7,355 bases of DNA from a virus (lineage: Duplodnaviria > Heunggongvirae > Uroviricota > Caudoviricetes). The position numbers were made by a program, and so were the translations under genes. Of this stretch, positions 3,190-7,355 are shown one piece after another. Below the pieces are notes generated by a model, which saw only the letters and a program-made list of their open reading frames with translations, did not search any database and was not told where the DNA came from. Positions within the stretch are counted from its first letter, which is position 1. Each line of letters begins with the position of its first letter. Location of the stretch: the IMG/VR virus record IMGVR_UViG_2579778804_000005; one strand, 5' to 3'.

Positions 3190-3552
3190 TTAAGAAGTGA
3201 AAACAGAATGGAACCCTTCAAGCTGGAAGCCTTTTTTAATTAATGCTGTTTTTGCTGCTTCACTTACAGCATTCAGGGCATCAGCTTTAATGCACACAAG
3301 GCCAGCATTGCTACGTAGCACATCTACAGGCTTGTTTTCTCCTGCCGTTACAAATTCACTCATAACAACATAGATATCATCTCCTGATTCATATTTAGCG
3401 CCCGTGCTTGTGATCAAGTCGCCACACTCAACATCAGCAGGAAGAGAAGCAAAAACCTTGCTTTCTACAGAGGCAAACGGATCAGTACAATAACTTACAA
3501 TATCTGTGAAAGTCTTTCTAACTGGAAACAGAGTGTCTAAATCAATAATCAT
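3190..3552 (-). CDS. Hypothetical capsid-module protein (120 aa); possibly a scaffold, decoration or assembly factor
   Basis: ATG at 3552-3550 with an AAGGAGA ribosome-binding site 7 nt upstream. The start overlaps the upstream gene's stop as ATGA (3552-3549), indicating translational coupling. TAA at 3192-3190, 18 nt before the capsid ATG. Function is guessed from position only. Confidence 0.55.
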   Translation of the reverse strand: MIIDLDTLFPVRKTFTDIVSYCTDPFASVESKVFASLPADVECGDLITSTGAKYESGDDIYVVMSEFVTAGENKPVDVLRSNAGLVCIKADALNAVSEAAKTALIKKGFQLEGFHSVFTS

Positions 3553-3761
3553 TTAGTAATCTCCTTAGCTTTTAATTTGATTAGTTCATTAAGGGAAGGT
3601 GTAGACGGAGAAGAAGGAGAAAAATATTTTTCAACACATCTTTCCACTTCCTCTACAGAACACCCAGCGTATTTAGCTACCATTTCGGTAATTTGTGGAT
3701 TAATTTTCAGCATTTCATCTCGATACTTGATGATTTGCTCTTTATCATTTAAGAACAACAT
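3549..3761 (-). CDS. Small protein (70 aa) with a helix-turn-helix-like segment; possibly DNA-binding
   Basis: ATG at 3761-3759; the TGA stop overlaps the next gene's ATG. The segment QITEMVAKYAGCSVEEVERCVEKY has HTH-like periodicity. It is the first gene after a 344-bp intergenic region containing an operator-like inverted repeat. The exact start codon is uncertain. Confidence 0.5.
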   Translation of the reverse strand: MLFLNDKEQIIKYRDEMLKINPQITEMVAKYAGCSVEEVERCVEKYFSPSSPSTPSLNELIKLKAKEITK

Positions 3762-3828
3762 TTATATAAACCTTGTTACCTTGTTTAAAGTAAGAAATAC
3801 AACTTTTAAGTTGCATAACGGGCAAAAT

Positions 3829-3855
3829 AAAAGGCAGCATTTAGAGCCGCCTTTT
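3829..3855 (-). terminator. Weak hairpin, possible terminator between the upstream operon and the structural operon
   Basis: aaaaggc (3829-3835) pairs with gcctttt (3849-3855) around a 13-nt loop. Flanked by A-rich and T-rich runs, so it could act in either direction. Only three G/C pairs in the stem. Confidence 0.25.
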
Positions 3856-3883
3856 ATTAACTTGTACCTATGTAATTACCCTA

Positions 3884-3915
3884 TGTTATGCATACTCCAA
3901 GATGTATGCATAACA
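3884..3915. promoter_or_regulatory. Perfect 12-bp inverted repeat (operator-like) upstream of the structural genes
   Basis: tgttatgcatac (3884-3895) and gtatgcataaca (3904-3915) are exact reverse complements separated by an 8-bp spacer (tccaagat). A third copy of the TGCATAAC core lies at 3812-3819. All sit in the intergenic region upstream, in transcription sense, of the ATG at 3761. Confidence 0.45.
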
Positions 3916-4105
3916 AAGGAAAAAAGAGGTAATAATGACACTTAAGGAGGAGGAGAAGCGGGGAGCGGAGATTTTACTCCCCTTTAATGACAGGAAGAAT
4001 TTTTAATATCGAACCAACAAAGGAAAAATAATCACCCCTATATAATTATATTAACATACAATATATGAAATGTCAAGATATTTTACAACTTTTTTGTTGC
4101 TTTTT

Positions 4106-4982: not shown

Positions 4983-5258
4983 TTAGAGAGTGGAATAGAT
5001 GAATTCTACTTTATCCAGTCTTTTGAGATTGAATGTAGAGAAAGATAATTCTTTAATCTCTATAACACCGAAATTTGATAGCTGTCTAAGCCAGAATTTT
5101 AAACCATCTTCAGAGCAAGCTGCTCGATGTAACACATCGCTATATTTTAGCGGTGTTGGCTTTCCTTTATAGAGGTAAGCAAGTGTTTCGTAGATGCGTT
5201 TTCCTGTGTCATTACACTGAATTCTGTCTACTTGATTTTTTACTAAATATTGAATCAT
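4983..5258 (-). CDS. Hypothetical protein (91 aa)
   Basis: ATG at 5258-5256 with a strong AAGGAGG ribosome-binding site that overlaps the stop codon of the upstream replication-initiator-like gene, suggesting coupled expression. TAA at 4985-4983. Confidence 0.55.
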   Translation of the reverse strand: MIQYLVKNQVDRIQCNDTGKRIYETLAYLYKGKPTPLKYSDVLHRAACSEDGLKFWLRQLSNFGVIEIKELSFSTFNLKRLDKVEFIYSTL

Positions 5259-5269
5259 AACCCTCCTTA

Positions 5270-5923
5270 TTAAAATGGAATATCAAAGTCATCATACACA
5301 TTTGGGTAATGCTTAGAAAAATATGCCTCAATACCATTTGGTAGCTTTAACCTGTGCTTATAGGCTAACGATGTTGCAAATTCTATAAAGGATGCTCCTG
5401 CTGTTCTGGTGTTTTTCTGCTGGCAGATAAGAGAGGCAAAATTCTCTAACACATCCTCCTCATTATCATTAGCTACCTTTTCATTTGATGAAACAGGTGT
5501 TTCTTCCGTCTCCCACGGCAAAGGCGCATCCCAATCATCAAGAACATCAAAAGAAGACTCTTTATTATCTTCTGTAGGGGGAAGCTGTTCAGGAACAGCT
5601 TTAACGGTAGCTTCTTGTTGTGTTTTGGCTTCTTGTCTAGCTTCTTCTTGTGGAATATCTACCACTTGATAGACATTAGAACTTCCTGGTCGTGCATCTT
5701 TTATAATTAATCCCATTTCGAGCAATTTCTTAACCCTTTCCTCTGCTGCTCTTGGTGTTATGCCAAAAACATCGCCTATCTTAGCGTAAGAGGGAAATGC
5801 ACGATCAAACCCTTTCAGATAGCAGTAAAGGTTTTTAGCACTATCTGTAAATTTATGCCCGTTTACTTGGCTTATTTTTAGAATCCACATAGGAACTTTT
5901 ACAAATTGTTCTTCATTAATCAT
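5270..5923 (-). CDS. Replication-initiator / replisome-organiser-like protein (217 aa): N-terminal winged-HTH, acidic linker, C-terminal DDFDIPF tail
   Basis: ATG at 5923-5921 with an AAGGAGA ribosome-binding site. The N-terminus (VPMWILKIS...YAKIGDVFGITPRAAEERVKKLLEMGLI) is typical of HTH replication-initiator and phage replisome-organiser N-domains. The middle is acidic and Pro/Glu-rich. The last residues NVYDDFDIPF were checked codon by codon at 5302-5273, with TAA at 5272-5270. Confidence 0.6.
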   Translation of the reverse strand: MINEEQFVKVPMWILKISQVNGHKFTDSAKNLYCYLKGFDRAFPSYAKIGDVFGITPRAAEERVKKLLEMGLIIKDARPGSSNVYQVVDIPQEEARQEAKTQQEATVKAVPEQLPPTEDNKESSFDVLDDWDAPLPWETEETPVSSNEKVANDNEEDVLENFASLICQQKNTRTAGASFIEFATSLAYKHRLKLPNGIEAYFSKHYPNVYDDFDIPF

Positions 5924-5974
5924 TAAAAATCTCCTTATAAATCACGCTTAATGCGCTACTAAAGTGAATGAGGA

Positions 5975-6142
5975 TCACTTACCCTTTTTTTGTTTGATGT
6001 TCTCTGCTGCTTCAGTAATGATTTCTAACATCAAATCACTGACCATAATTTGCCTTTTCTTGGCTTCAGCAAATAAAACCTTGAAGATTTCAGGGTCAAC
6101 GTGTAGGTAAGTACGCGGAATTGGTTTCTTGGTTTCGCTCAT
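5975..6142 (-). CDS. Ribbon-helix-helix (CopG/Arc/MetJ-type) DNA-binding protein, 55 aa, absent from the ORF track
   Basis: Manual translation: ATG at 6142-6140 with an AAGGAGA ribosome-binding site, TGA at 5977-5975. Product MSETKKPIPRTYLHVDPEIFKVLFAEAKKRQIMVSDLMLEIITEAAENIKQKKGK shows the classic strand-helix-helix pattern (TYLHVDPEIF... then ...SDLMLEII). It lies 19 nt after the 62-aa gene and 51 nt before the replication gene. Confidence 0.6.
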   Translation of the reverse strand: MSETKKPIPRTYLHVDPEIFKVLFAEAKKRQIMVSDLMLEIITEAAENIKQKKGK

Positions 6143-6161
6143 AGTTTTCTCCTTCTATTCT

Positions 6162-6350
6162 TTACTCTGTTTCAGATTCTTTTTCATTTTTTCTTAGTTC
6201 ATCAATAATCTTGAGTGCTTCATTGAAGCAAGCTGCTCGCTCTGGATAACCTCGACTCCTTGCCATATTACGATTCATTACTACTTGATGGCGTGTAAGC
6301 TCACCTTTTTTAAATGCCTCCACGACGTGTTCTGATGTAAACCATTTCAT
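6162..6350 (-). CDS. Hypothetical small protein (62 aa), first gene of the regulatory/replication operon
   Basis: ATG at 6350-6348 with an AAGGAG ribosome-binding site 6 nt upstream; TAA at 6164-6162. It lies downstream of a predicted sigma70-type promoter. Basic/acidic composition, no confident motif. Confidence 0.5.
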   Translation of the reverse strand: MKWFTSEHVVEAFKKGELTRHQVVMNRNMARSRGYPERAACFNEALKIIDELRKNEKESETE

Positions 6351-6460: not shown

Positions 6461-6489
6461 ATTATTACATATAAAGAAACATTTGTCAA
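6461..6489 (-). promoter_or_regulatory. Sigma70/SigA-type promoter with an extended -10, reading toward the 62-aa, RHH and replication genes
   Basis: On the minus strand: TTGACA (-35, plus 6489-6484), a 17-nt spacer, then TGtAATAAT (extended -10, plus 6469-6461). The predicted transcript start is about 100 nt upstream of the ATG at 6350. Confidence 0.45.
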
Positions 6490-6581
6490 TACCTTTTCAC
6501 AAAAAATCTGATCTTTTTCATGCACTTACATTTTTTCTTAGCTATTCGTGCTCTTCTGTGTAGTGCTATTCTTCATTATTG

Positions 6582-6610
6582 TCTAAAACGCTCTAAAACG
6601 CGTTCTAACG
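6582..6610. repeat. Tandem direct repeats (iteron-like): two perfect TCTAAAACG copies at 10-bp period plus a degenerate third
   Basis: tctaaaacg at 6582-6590 and 6592-6600, then ttctaacg at 6603-6610. The junction forms the palindrome aacgcgtt (6597-6604). Located in non-coding DNA upstream of the promoter. Confidence 0.5.
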
Positions 6611-7015
6611 AGATTTTGATAAAAGCAATACATTCCCTTATCTAATGGCTGTTTAGCTCGCCAGAGGCTTATTTAAGGGGCTTATTTTGTATTTGTTAGG
6701 TATATGAAAAGGTAATGGCAGATATAAGATAGAGAGTCACTTTATAAAACGTTCTGTAAAGCCCTGTAGTGAGATTATATATGTAGGCAATGCGTTTCCA
6801 TTCCCTACCCTGCTTAATGCTGTTAGAGAAGCATTTAGACCCCTTATTTTTAATTAATTAAAGTATCCTCTGTACCTTGTGTTATGAAACACCTCTGAAT
6901 CCTTCATAAAACACATTATGACGCAAAGAACACTTTTCTAAGGTGATTCCCTTCCTGAATGCTGTTTCTTGCGTCAGAGAGCTACACAGAGCTTATAAAG
7001 CTATTATTAATAATA

Positions 7016-7076
7016 AAGTAGATAAAGTAAGATAAGTAAGTAAGATAACTAAGATAGATAAGATTAATAAGATCAG
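7016..7076. repeat. Low-complexity GATAAG/TAAGAT-rich tract
   Basis: About 60 bp built almost entirely from GATA(A/G) and TAAG units (gataaagtaagataagtaagtaagataactaagatagataagattaataagatc). No ORF on either strand. Confidence 0.5.
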
Positions 7077-7117
7077 AATTCTCTTTCGGTGTCGCCTCTG
7101 GCTTTTCCACCGAAAAC

Positions 7118-7274
7118 AATTACACGACTACAGAAGTAGGAAGTGGAATTGTATTGAGGCTTAGTGAAATTACACGAGGAAAGCAGAGTGTAATTGAGCT
7201 TTAGCCGCTCTCTCTTCGAGTAATTACACAACTACAGAGAATAACGAGAGTTATTAAATGTAGGAAGTGGAATT
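7118..7274. repeat. Cluster of AATTACAC sites (three direct, one inverted) and a perfect 15-bp direct repeat
   Basis: AATTACAC at 7118-7125, 7168-7175 and 7222-7229; inverted copy GTGTAATT at 7188-7195. GTAGGAAGTGGAATT occurs at 7136-7150 and 7260-7274. The two long units (7118-7150, 7222-7274) differ by a ~20-bp insertion that contains a small ataac/gttat inverted repeat. Confidence 0.5.
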
Positions 7275-7341
7275 AAGAGGTAGAGAGAGTTAACACATAA
7301 GCAATCAGTATGATTGGTTAGGTGATTACTCTTCTGCGCAC

Positions 7342-7355
7342 CTGTCTCTTATACA
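7342..7355. other. Likely Tn5 mosaic-end (Nextera-type) adapter remnant, not biological sequence
   Basis: The final 14 nt, ctgtctcttataca, match exactly the first 14 nt of the mosaic-end adapter read-through sequence CTGTCTCTTATACACATCT. The match sits at the very end of the window. It fits the synthetic mosaic end, not the natural IS50 outside end (CTGACTCTTATACACAAGT) or inside end (CTGTCTCTTGATCAGATCT). Confidence 0.75.

What the first reader, a model, noticed from the sequence alone, without database searches (positions are those of the whole stretch)
3812..3915. Operator-like perfect 12-bp inverted repeat plus a third half-site upstream of the structural operon
A perfect 12-bp inverted repeat with an 8-bp spacer is very unlikely by chance in a 344-bp intergenic region, and the same TGCATAAC core recurs 65 bp away. 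The layout suggests dimeric regulator binding that controls structural-gene expression. Candidate binders are the RHH protein, the 62-aa protein, the 70-aa HTH protein, or a helper or host factor.
Basis: seen in the sequence. Interest (0 to 1): 0.55.

Follow-up and report, generated by a model that had tools for sequence, protein, structure and literature searches.

The report
Hairpin in a capsid-operon leader RNA
The perfect 12-bp inverted repeat is real and conserved, but it lies inside a short transcript that starts at a strong promoter and ends at a terminator just before the capsid genes of a widespread E. coli island, so it is more likely an RNA stem-loop than a repressor-binding operator.

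Summary
TGTTATGCATAC (3884-3895), an 8-nt spacer and GTATGCATAACA (3904-3915) form a perfect inverted repeat, the longest in the window (about 0.2% of shuffled intergenic regions reach it). It is present in all 47 close relatives recovered.

The operator reading is only partly supported. All genes are on the minus strand. A near-consensus sigma-70 promoter (4076-4048) fires towards the repeat, which lies at about +127 to +158. An intrinsic terminator (3858-3824) sits between the repeat and the first structural gene. Every divergent relative has this promoter, long non-coding leader and terminator layout.

In one sister clade the leader shows strong base-pair covariation. In this clade, all six variable predicted pairs change only by wobble that is allowed on the minus-strand RNA.

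The "third half-site" is polymorphic and its spacing varies. It belongs to a different dyad, CAAC-N6-GTTG, which occurs at the promoter and after the terminator across the family and is the better operator candidate.

The RHH protein and the Rep protein do not co-vary with the repeat.

Best reading: an RNA stem-loop in a termination-controlled leader (about 0.52). A DNA operator is not excluded (about 0.27).

The parts
3884..3915 (-). The perfect 12-nt inverted repeat with an 8-nt spacer. On the minus-strand transcript it forms a 12-bp stem with loop AUCUUGGA.
   Evidence: Folded with its flanks it gives -21.3 kcal/mol, z -5.8. Across 47 loci there are only two haplotypes, differing by U-A to U.G on the minus strand.
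3880..3919 (-). Extended base of the hairpin: four more pairs after a U.U mismatch, CCUU paired with UAGG.
   Evidence: In one variant the two outer pairs change from U.G to C-G and from C-G to U.G.
4048..4076 (-). Predicted sigma-70 promoter: TTGACA, 17-nt spacer, TAATAT, with a TG extended -10. The inferred start is near 4041.
   Evidence: 10 of 12 matches, TG present. The -35 hexamer is invariant in 31 distinct leaders; the -10 hexamer differs in two (TAGTAT in L037, TAACAT in L060). A comparable promoter follows the upstream gene's stop in most divergent relatives.
3826..4041 (-). Predicted non-coding leader or terminated RNA of about 215 nt, from the inferred start through the terminator.
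   Evidence: The minus-strand fold is -64.2 kcal/mol (z -5.4), against -54.6 (z -3.5) for the plus strand. No Rfam match. All six variable predicted pairs keep a standard pair.
3824..3858 (-). Intrinsic-terminator-like hairpin GGCGGC/GCUGCC, extended by A/U pairs, followed by UUUUAUUUU.
   Evidence: I4. The fold is -17.8 kcal/mol on the minus strand and -13.7 on the plus strand, which has an A.C mismatch. The only variation is in the loop. A terminator-like hairpin is present in every relative examined. The scan did not list it.
3960..3982 (-). Upstream G/C-rich hairpin of the leader (GGGGAGU...GCUCCCC), followed by a C/U-rich tract (3944-3959 on the + strand).
   Evidence: invariant in this clade. 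By eye, other clades have a G-rich/C-rich hairpin followed by UCUCC. A covariance model did not confirm homology.
3800..3813 (.). Dyad CAAC-N6-GTTG after the terminator, 39 bp before the 70-aa gene.
   Evidence: (D2, I15). As RNA it forms a small hairpin of -6.5 kcal/mol. The G-to-A polymorphism converts a G.U pair to A-U.
4086..4099 (.). Second copy of the dyad CAAC-N6-GTTG, ending 9 bp upstream of the -35 hexamer. Its centre is at about -51.
   Evidence: D2, 15 of 17 identical; 2 matches in the window, 0.11 expected.
3549..3761 (-). First gene of the structural operon (70 aa). Downstream follow a 120-aa gene, a gpE-like major capsid protein, a 67-aa gene and a tape-measure-like protein.
   Evidence: The HTH-like assignment is weak.

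Best explanation
The inverted repeat is the DNA image of an RNA stem-loop. It is the most stable helix of a roughly 215-nt non-coding leader.

The leader is transcribed on the minus strand from a near-consensus sigma-70 promoter (4076-4048). It ends at an intrinsic terminator (3858-3824) just upstream of the structural operon (70-aa gene, 120-aa gene, major capsid protein, tape-measure-like protein) of an integrated satellite-like island.

In the resting island, transcription would stop at the terminator and yield a short structured RNA. Capsid genes would be expressed only when the terminator is overridden, for example by a factor supplied after helper-phage infection. Within this leader the hairpin would act as a folding, stability or processing element, or as a protein-binding element.

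Shown here: the repeat, the promoter and terminator sequence matches, their conservation, and the substitution pattern.

Inferred: that the leader is transcribed, that termination occurs and is relieved, and the specific role of the hairpin.
For: 1. Geometry. There is a strong promoter match upstream, the repeat lies at about +127 to +158, and the terminator hairpin with its U-run starts 25 nt further on, before the first structural gene.

2. Family-wide layout. The same arrangement (near-consensus promoter directly after the upstream gene's stop, 330-880 nt without conserved ORFs, a terminator 35-130 nt before the first structural gene) recurs in relatives from E. coli, Enterobacter, Klebsiella, Citrobacter, Dryocola and Serratia. 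Their capsid proteins are 38-79% identical to this one.

3. Covariation in a sister clade. In 11 leaders of 600-700 nt, 68 predicted pairs are 93.5% paired and 27 pairs show compensatory double changes. None of 500 shuffles reaches this, and slid controls give 39-50% paired. A core hairpin has 10 of 21 pairs with double changes.

4. Substitutions in this clade. In 31 distinct leaders, 60 predicted pairs are 100% paired. All six variable pairs change on one side only, to a pair allowed on the minus-strand RNA. In the repeat the counts are U-A in 17 and U.G in 14. On the plus strand these would be A.C mismatches. The A-to-G variant hairpin is as stable as the original (-21.0 against -21.3 kcal/mol).

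5. Strand asymmetry. The minus-strand leader folds at -64.2 against -54.6 kcal/mol for the plus strand, and the terminator at -17.8 against -13.7.

6. Absence of an operator pattern. The half-site occurs nowhere else in the island. The exact repeat occurs in no other element in IMG/VR. No phage record shares the region.
Against: - No expression data were available. The promoter and terminator are consensus matches only, and the scan did not list this terminator.
- This clade has no compensatory double changes. The structure tested was predicted from the same alignment, so that test is partly circular.
- One-sided transitions that keep a wobble pair are expected fairly often by chance (roughly one third to one half per event).
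- The 8-nt loop and the flanks are as invariant as the arms, which fits protein recognition of either DNA or RNA.
- The repeat's sequence is not conserved outside the close clade. A covariance model of the sister-clade core hairpin does not detect this window's leader, so the homology of the leaders is not demonstrated.
- No antiterminator was identified. p111, p135 and p70 have no informative sequence or fold matches.
Confidence: 0.52

Rival explanations
1. The repeat is a double-stranded DNA operator. A dimeric or tetrameric regulator binds the two 12-bp arms, whose centres are 20 bp (about two helical turns) apart. It controls the structural operon as a transcriptional roadblock downstream of the promoter, or by looping to other sites. 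The binder would be a protein of the linked module (p70, p91, p111 or p135), or a helper or host factor.
For: The symmetry is perfect and far beyond chance. The arms, the spacer and the flanks are invariant in 47 loci. Each arm contains the 8-bp palindrome TATGCATA (D9). p70, p91, p111 and p135 are at least 88% identical in every repeat-bearing locus, and at most 54% identical or absent where the repeat is missing. The low-confidence p70 model has a helix-turn-helix-like pair of helices, and its non-significant fold hits are mostly HTH domains.
Against: The repeat is not at a promoter. It lies about 127 nt downstream of the inferred start and upstream of a terminator. There is no second copy anywhere in the island. 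The third half-site is polymorphic and variably spaced. The RHH and Rep proteins do not co-vary with the repeat, and the 62-aa protein probably does not either. The common A-to-G variant breaks the DNA symmetry but keeps RNA pairing. The putative recognition helix of p70 is strongly acidic. A better operator-like motif exists in the same region.
Confidence: 0.27
2. The repeat has no function of its own. It is a neutral palindrome that persists because the clade is young and the whole intergenic region is about 95% identical.
For: The repeat is no better conserved than its surroundings; mean column identity of the intergenic region is 95%. It is absent from all more distant family members.
Against: It is very improbable by chance. 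The flanking stretches carry several indels (a 17-bp deletion 3' of it and a hypervariable tract 5' of it), yet all of them stop at the edges of the extended stem. The only substitution inside it preserves pairing.
Confidence: 0.12
3. The repeat is a DNA site for packaging or another DNA transaction, for example a pac- or cos-like site recognised by a helper terminase. Such sites often lie just upstream of the first structural gene.
For: The position at the head of the structural module resembles lambda cos (established knowledge). The island has no terminase or portal gene in the stretch examined, so it would have to present a site to a helper.
Against: No phage record shares the region, even at low stringency. 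The exact repeat is not found outside the island family in IMG/VR. The site is not conserved among family members that share the same capsid gene set.
Confidence: 0.06

Closest known systems
Lambda late-gene control module (pR' promoter, terminated 6S transcript at tR', Q antiterminator)
   Same: A strong constitutive-type sigma-70 promoter sits directly after a small upstream gene. It produces a terminated leader of about 200 nt. The whole structural operon lies behind the terminator (the lambda layout is established knowledge).
   Different: No Q-family protein was detected. No Q-binding element or pause element was shown. The relatives' leaders are long structured RNAs with covariation, which lambda 6S RNA is not known to require.
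Satellite phage P4 immunity (PLE leader, CI RNA and premature termination; Rfam C4 antisense RNA family)
   Same: The element is satellite-like. A constitutive promoter feeds a structured leader whose terminator keeps a downstream operon silent.
   Different: There is no Rfam C4 match. The controlled operon is the structural one, not the early one. Target/effector complementarity within the leader was not demonstrated.
HK022 put RNA and other cis-acting antiterminator RNA stem-loops
   Same: Stable stem-loops lie in the transcript between a promoter and a downstream terminator.
   Different: No sequence or structure similarity could be tested. Here the hairpin is clade-specific and sits 25 nt (8 nt in deletion variants) before the terminator, without overlapping it.
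Palindromic operators with an 8-bp spacer (for example the HipB operator TATCC-N8-GGATA, from memory)
   Same: Dyad symmetry with an 8-bp spacer.
   Different: Those operators overlap their promoter and occur in several copies. This repeat does neither.

Membership tests
Palindromic repressor/activator operator | Dyad-symmetric sequence beyond chance | tested here: met
   Perfect 12+8+12 repeat; reached in 0.18% of shuffled intergenic regions.
Palindromic repressor/activator operator | Overlaps or adjoins the -35/-10 of the regulated promoter, or lies at an activator position (-40 to -90) | tested here: not met
   The only strong promoter match is 4076-4048. The repeat lies at about +127 to +158, and no promoter-like site was called at or just downstream of it on either strand.
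Palindromic repressor/activator operator | Additional copies or half-sites at this or other regulated promoters | tested here: not met
   No other TGCATAAC or GTTATGCA in the roughly 12-kb island. The third half-site is polymorphic and variably spaced.
Palindromic repressor/activator operator | Co-variation with a cognate DNA-binding protein | tested here: inconclusive
   Not met for the RHH protein (100%, 46% or absent) or Rep (29-95%). Doubtful for the 62-aa protein. Compatible for p70, p91, p111 and p135, which are simply linked to the repeat.
Palindromic repressor/activator operator | Demonstrated protein binding to the duplex | not testable with these tools
   Needs gel shift or footprinting.
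Terminated leader / antitermination-controlled late operon (lambda pR'-tR' type) | Strong sigma-70 promoter directly upstream of the late operon | tested here: met
   TTGACA-17-TAATAT with TG. Conserved in 31 distinct leaders and in most divergent clades. This is a sequence prediction only.
Terminated leader / antitermination-controlled late operon (lambda pR'-tR' type) | Intrinsic terminator between the promoter and the first late gene | tested here: met
   Hairpin plus U-run at 3858-3824. A terminator-like hairpin is present in all relatives examined. This is a sequence prediction only.
Terminated leader / antitermination-controlled late operon (lambda pR'-tR' type) | Q-family antiterminator gene upstream | tested here: not met
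   p111 and p135 have no Pfam, PHROG, NCBIfam or PDB match to antiterminators. The p135 fold search gave nothing.
Terminated leader / antitermination-controlled late operon (lambda pR'-tR' type) | Promoter-proximal sigma-dependent pause element | tested here: inconclusive
   A conserved TATAGGG-like motif follows the -10 hexamer in many relatives. No clean -10-like hexamer could be assigned.
Structured cis-regulatory or non-coding RNA | Base-pair covariation | tested here: inconclusive
   Strong in the sister-clade leader: 27 of 68 pairs with double changes, 0 of 500 shuffles reach it. In this clade there are only six one-sided, pair-preserving changes. Homology between the two leaders is not shown.
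Any Rfam 15 family (including C4 antisense RNA) | Covariance-model match | tested here: not met
   No relevant hit in the window, the island or the relatives, even at permissive E-values.

The most novel reading that the evidence does not exclude
The region between the regulatory genes and the capsid genes of this undescribed family of capsid- and tail-gene-bearing islands encodes a new class of structured regulatory RNA. It is about 215 nt here and 600-700 nt, with at least 11 covarying helices, in Enterobacter, Klebsiella and Citrobacter relatives. It gates capsid-gene expression by termination. The inverted repeat would be a clade-specific module of this RNA, read by a helper- or island-encoded factor. 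The CAAC-N6-GTTG dyads that flank the leader would be the true DNA operators of a looping repressor.
Probability: 0.25. Interest if true: 0.7.

Novelty: new variant of a known kind. Interest (0 to 1): 0.45.

Why it matters
Some part of the window matches 721 of 5426 complete E. coli genomes (13%). The control region itself is present in 308 of them. Related islands occur in several other Enterobacteriaceae. The island carries its own capsid, tape-measure-like and distal-tail-like genes but no recognisable regulator.

If capsid-gene expression is gated by a terminated, structured leader RNA rather than by a classical operator, this gives a concrete and testable handle on how such an island stays silent and how it senses a helper phage. 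It may also add a sizeable structured RNA that is absent from Rfam.

For annotation, the practical lesson is that a perfect palindrome upstream of an operon need not be an operator. Strand, promoter and terminator context decide.

Tried and rejected
- Small + strand ORF 3935-4006 (23 aa, with a good ribosome-binding site), antisense to the leader. Rejected: it is frameshifted or truncated in at least 13 of about 57 loci.
- Known RNA families. None matched in the window, the island or the relatives.
- Helper-phage late-promoter motif. The region and the repeat have no credible match among 50,697 phage records. The single weak hit lies inside an rV5 coding gene at E = 3. The exact repeat occurs only in this island family in IMG/VR.
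- Identity of candidate binders or antiterminators. Pfam, PHROGs, NCBIfam and PDB sequence searches of p70, p111, p135, p91, p55 and p62 gave nothing significant. The AlphaFold model of p135 (pLDDT 61) and its Foldseek search gave nothing. The single-sequence p70 model (pLDDT 63) gave only non-significant HTH-like hits.
- Homology of this leader to the sister-clade leader. A covariance model of the sister-clade core hairpin finds its own clade (E = 2e-16) but not this window, L023, L027, L030, L033 or L072. With filters off, only a U-rich 5' segment aligns, at E = 0.09.
- A sigma-54 promoter or a second sigma-70 promoter between the terminator and the 70-aa gene.
- Literature. Searches for a described satellite family or thrW island with this gene set found none.

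Full report
**Observation.** The + strand reads TGTTATGCATAC (3884-3895), TCCAAGAT, GTATGCATAACA (3904-3915). This is a perfect 12-nt inverted repeat with an 8-nt spacer, extendable to 16 nt with one mismatch. It is the longest perfect inverted repeat in the window. A repeat this good arises in 0.18% of dinucleotide-preserving shuffles of the 344-bp intergenic region, and in 5 of 300 shuffles of the whole window. TGCATAAC recurs at 3812-3819, 65 nt from the left arm. That third copy is only marginally unexpected (2.7% of shuffles). The core occurs nowhere else in the window or in the roughly 12-kb island.

**What the window is.** All convincing genes are on the minus strand. From right to left they are:
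- a 62-aa protein and a 55-aa RHH-like protein;
- a replication-initiator-like protein with a winged helix (Rep217);
- p91, p135 and p111;
- the 344-bp gap;
- a 70-aa protein and a 120-aa protein;
- a lambda gpE-family major capsid protein;
- a 67-aa protein and a tape-measure-like protein.

The window is 100% identical to a stretch of two E. coli chromosomes. It forms part of a roughly 12-kb island between tRNA-Thr and a tyrosine integrase, next to a distal-tail-protein-like gene. Some part of it matches 721 of 5426 complete E. coli genomes. The control region itself is found in 308. Related islands with the same gene order occur in Enterobacter, Klebsiella, Citrobacter, Dryocola, Cronobacter and Serratia. 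I found no description of this family in the papers searched.

**Anatomy of the gap, read in the direction of transcription (minus strand).**
- Thirty bases after the stop codon of p111 lies TTGACA, a 17-nt spacer and TAATAT with a TG extended -10 (4076-4048). This is one of the two best promoter matches in the window. The inferred start is near 4041.
- Next comes a G/C-rich hairpin (3982-3960) and a C/U-rich tract.
- The inverted repeat follows, at about +127 to +158.
- Twenty-five nucleotides later there is a hairpin GGCGGC/GCUGCC flanked by A and U runs and followed by UUUUAUUUU (3858-3824). This is an intrinsic-terminator shape. It is better on the minus strand (-17.8 kcal/mol) than on the plus strand (-13.7, with an A.C mismatch).
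- Last come a small dyad/hairpin (3813-3800) and the ribosome-binding region of the 70-aa gene.

The repeat is therefore not at a promoter. It sits inside a promoter-to-terminator unit of about 215 nt that precedes the structural operon. The minus-strand RNA of this unit folds at -64.2 kcal/mol (z -5.4), against -54.6 (z -3.5) for the plus strand. The repeat alone gives a hairpin of -21.3 kcal/mol.

**Close relatives.** Forty-seven loci from IMG/VR, metagenomes and genomes carry the repeat. They show only two haplotypes: the perfect one, and an A-to-G change in the 3' arm of the minus strand. On the minus-strand RNA this turns a U-A pair into U.G, and the hairpin keeps its stability (-21.0 kcal/mol). 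On the plus strand it would be an A.C mismatch.

In 31 distinct leaders, the 60 predicted pairs are paired in 100% of cells. All six variable pairs change on one side only, to another standard pair:
- the repeat stem (U-A in 17, U.G in 14);
- two pairs at the base of the repeat;
- the post-terminator hairpin;
- a 5'-3' closing helix;
- a hairpin at the ribosome-binding site.

This is suggestive but partly circular, because the structure was predicted on the same alignment. Indels are frequent on both sides of the repeat, including a hypervariable tract 5' of it and a 17-bp deletion 3' of it. They stop at the edges of the extended stem.

**The third half-site.** Its G is replaced by A in 6 of 14 relatives, or 3 of 31 distinct leaders. 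This destroys the TGCATAAC core but improves the local hairpin ATRCAACUU-AA-AAGUUGUAU (G.U to A-U). The 17-bp deletion changes its distance to the repeat from 65 to 48 bp. It belongs to another element, described under the second dyad below.

**Candidate binders.** Among 34 repeat-bearing loci with enough upstream sequence:
- the RHH protein is 100% identical, 46% identical or absent;
- Rep217 ranges from 29 to 95% identity;
- the 62-aa protein ranges from 62 to 98% identity.

The repeat does not change across these loci. Conversely, L023 has an 81%-identical 62-aa protein and no repeat. Only p91, p135, p111 and p70 are always at least 88% identical where the repeat is present. They are physically linked to it, so this does not single them out.

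None of these proteins has an informative family, sequence or fold match. The p70 model is of low confidence. It has a helix-turn-helix-like pair of helices with an acidic second helix.

**Distant relatives.** The repeat's sequence is absent from family members whose capsid protein is 79% identical or less. The architecture is nevertheless kept in every clade examined:
- a TTGACA plus extended -10 promoter directly after the upstream gene in most loci;
- 330-880 nt without a conserved ORF;
- a terminator 35-130 nt before the first structural gene.

In the Enterobacter/Klebsiella/Citrobacter clade the leader is 600-700 nt and clearly a structured RNA. Its 68 predicted pairs are 93.5% paired, and 27 show compensatory double changes. 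None of 500 shuffles reaches this, and slid controls give 39-50% paired. A nested core hairpin has 10 of 21 pairs with double changes.

No Rfam family matches any of these leaders. A covariance model of that core hairpin does not detect this window's leader. The shared feature I can defend is therefore the architecture, not homology of individual helices.

**A second, better operator-like element.** CAAC-N6-GTTG occurs exactly twice in the window (0.11 expected; 1 of 200 shuffles reaches two). Both copies lie in this gap. One ends 9 bp upstream of the -35 hexamer (4086-4099).

Across 20 intergenic regions of divergent relatives, YAAC-N6-GTTR occurs 27 times against about 0.5 expected. It falls into two positional classes: at the promoter, and 34-63 nt before the first structural gene. 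This clade has CAAC/GTTG at both sites. All other clades have TAAC/GTTA. That is the pattern expected of a regulator and its operators changing specificity together. For the downstream copy alone, an RNA hairpin explanation also fits. This dyad, not the 12-bp repeat, is where I would look first for a DNA-binding regulator.

**Most likely mechanism.** The repeat is an RNA stem-loop in a constitutively initiated, terminator-capped leader that keeps the structural operon off until the terminator is overridden. The hairpin would serve folding, stability or processing, or act as a binding site for the factor that relieves termination (confidence 0.52). The layout works like the lambda pR'-tR' late module or the P4 leader. 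It is not a member of either: no Q-family protein and no C4-type RNA were found.

**Rivals.**
- A genuine DNA operator acting as a roadblock or looping partner (0.27).
- A neutral palindrome in a young clade (0.12).
- A packaging or other DNA site (0.06).

**What would settle it.** The key experiment is an arm-swap mutant, which keeps RNA pairing but changes the DNA half-sites, together with transcript mapping.

Noticed in passing
window 4086-4099 and 3800-3813; relatives L023-L033, L072-L088: The dyad CAAC-N6-GTTG flanks the leader, at about -51 of the promoter and just after the terminator. Family-wide, YAAC-N6-GTTR occurs 27 times in 20 intergenic regions (about 0.5 expected), in the same two positions. 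Both arms at both sites change together between clades (CAAC/GTTG here, TAAC/GTTA elsewhere). It looks like the real operator pair of an unidentified regulator.
   Followed up: partly
L025:5714-6392, L031:3744-4404, L077-L088 (equivalent intergenic regions): In Enterobacter, Klebsiella and Citrobacter relatives, the leader before the capsid operon is a 600-700-nt RNA with at least 11 helices and strong covariation. It has no Rfam match and may be an undescribed large structured RNA.
   Followed up: partly
window 7342-7355: The window ends in CTGTCTCTTATACA, which I recognise from memory as the start of the Nextera transposase adapter. The genomic match stops at 7341. The last 14 bases are therefore probably a sequencing artefact.
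   Followed up: partly
window 5570-6154: The 5' part of the Rep gene and the 55-aa gene are 90-99.6% identical to DNA of virulent rV5-like coliphages (muut, inny, Mt1B1_P17, BI-EHEC). This points to recent exchange with these phages and marks them as possible helpers.
   Followed up: partly
window 4983-6350 compared with L002-L058: The replication and early module is mosaic. In islands that are otherwise at least 94% identical, the 55-aa gene is identical, 46% identical or missing, and Rep is 29-95% identical. The swap boundary lies between p91 and Rep.
   Followed up: partly
window 7118-7274: Iteron-like repeats lie next to an A/T-rich tract (7000-7080). AATTACAC(G/A)ACTACAGA occurs three times at 50-54-bp spacing, and GTAGGAAGTGGAATT occurs twice. 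This is probably the replication origin served by Rep217.
   Followed up: no
L001 9903-22095 (island in E. coli 89-3156): The island carries an integrase, a distal-tail-like protein, a tape-measure-like protein, a capsid protein and a possible decoration protein. No portal, protease or terminase gene is annotated. This gene set fits none of the satellite families I know. About 3.6 kb between the 62-aa gene and tRNA-Thr has no convincing ORF.
   Followed up: partly
window 4016-4028 and 3912-3924 (leader); 3770-3785 (ribosome-binding region): The leader contains UUUUUCCUUUGUU twice. The second copy runs into the 5' arm of the repeat. This sequence is nearly complementary to the duplicated AACAAGGU just before the 70-aa start codon. 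The repeat's loop (UCUUG) can also pair with CAAGG. Sequestration of the ribosome-binding site is possible but untested (D3, D8).
   Followed up: no
window 3935-4006 (+): A 23-aa ORF with a good ribosome-binding site lies antisense to the leader. It is frameshifted or truncated in many relatives, so it is not a gene.
   Followed up: yes
L025 5698-5707 (promoter spacer): TGTGCATAAC lies in the -35/-10 spacer of the Enterobacter relative's leader promoter. It is identical to 10 nt of the variant arm of the repeat. This may be a coincidence.
   Followed up: no
window 6461-6489 and 6579-6622: A second near-consensus promoter (TTGACA-17-AATAAT with TG, minus strand) lies ahead of the 62-aa gene. 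Upstream of it are repeats and a palindrome of the TCTAAAACGC type. This is the probable early control region.
   Followed up: no
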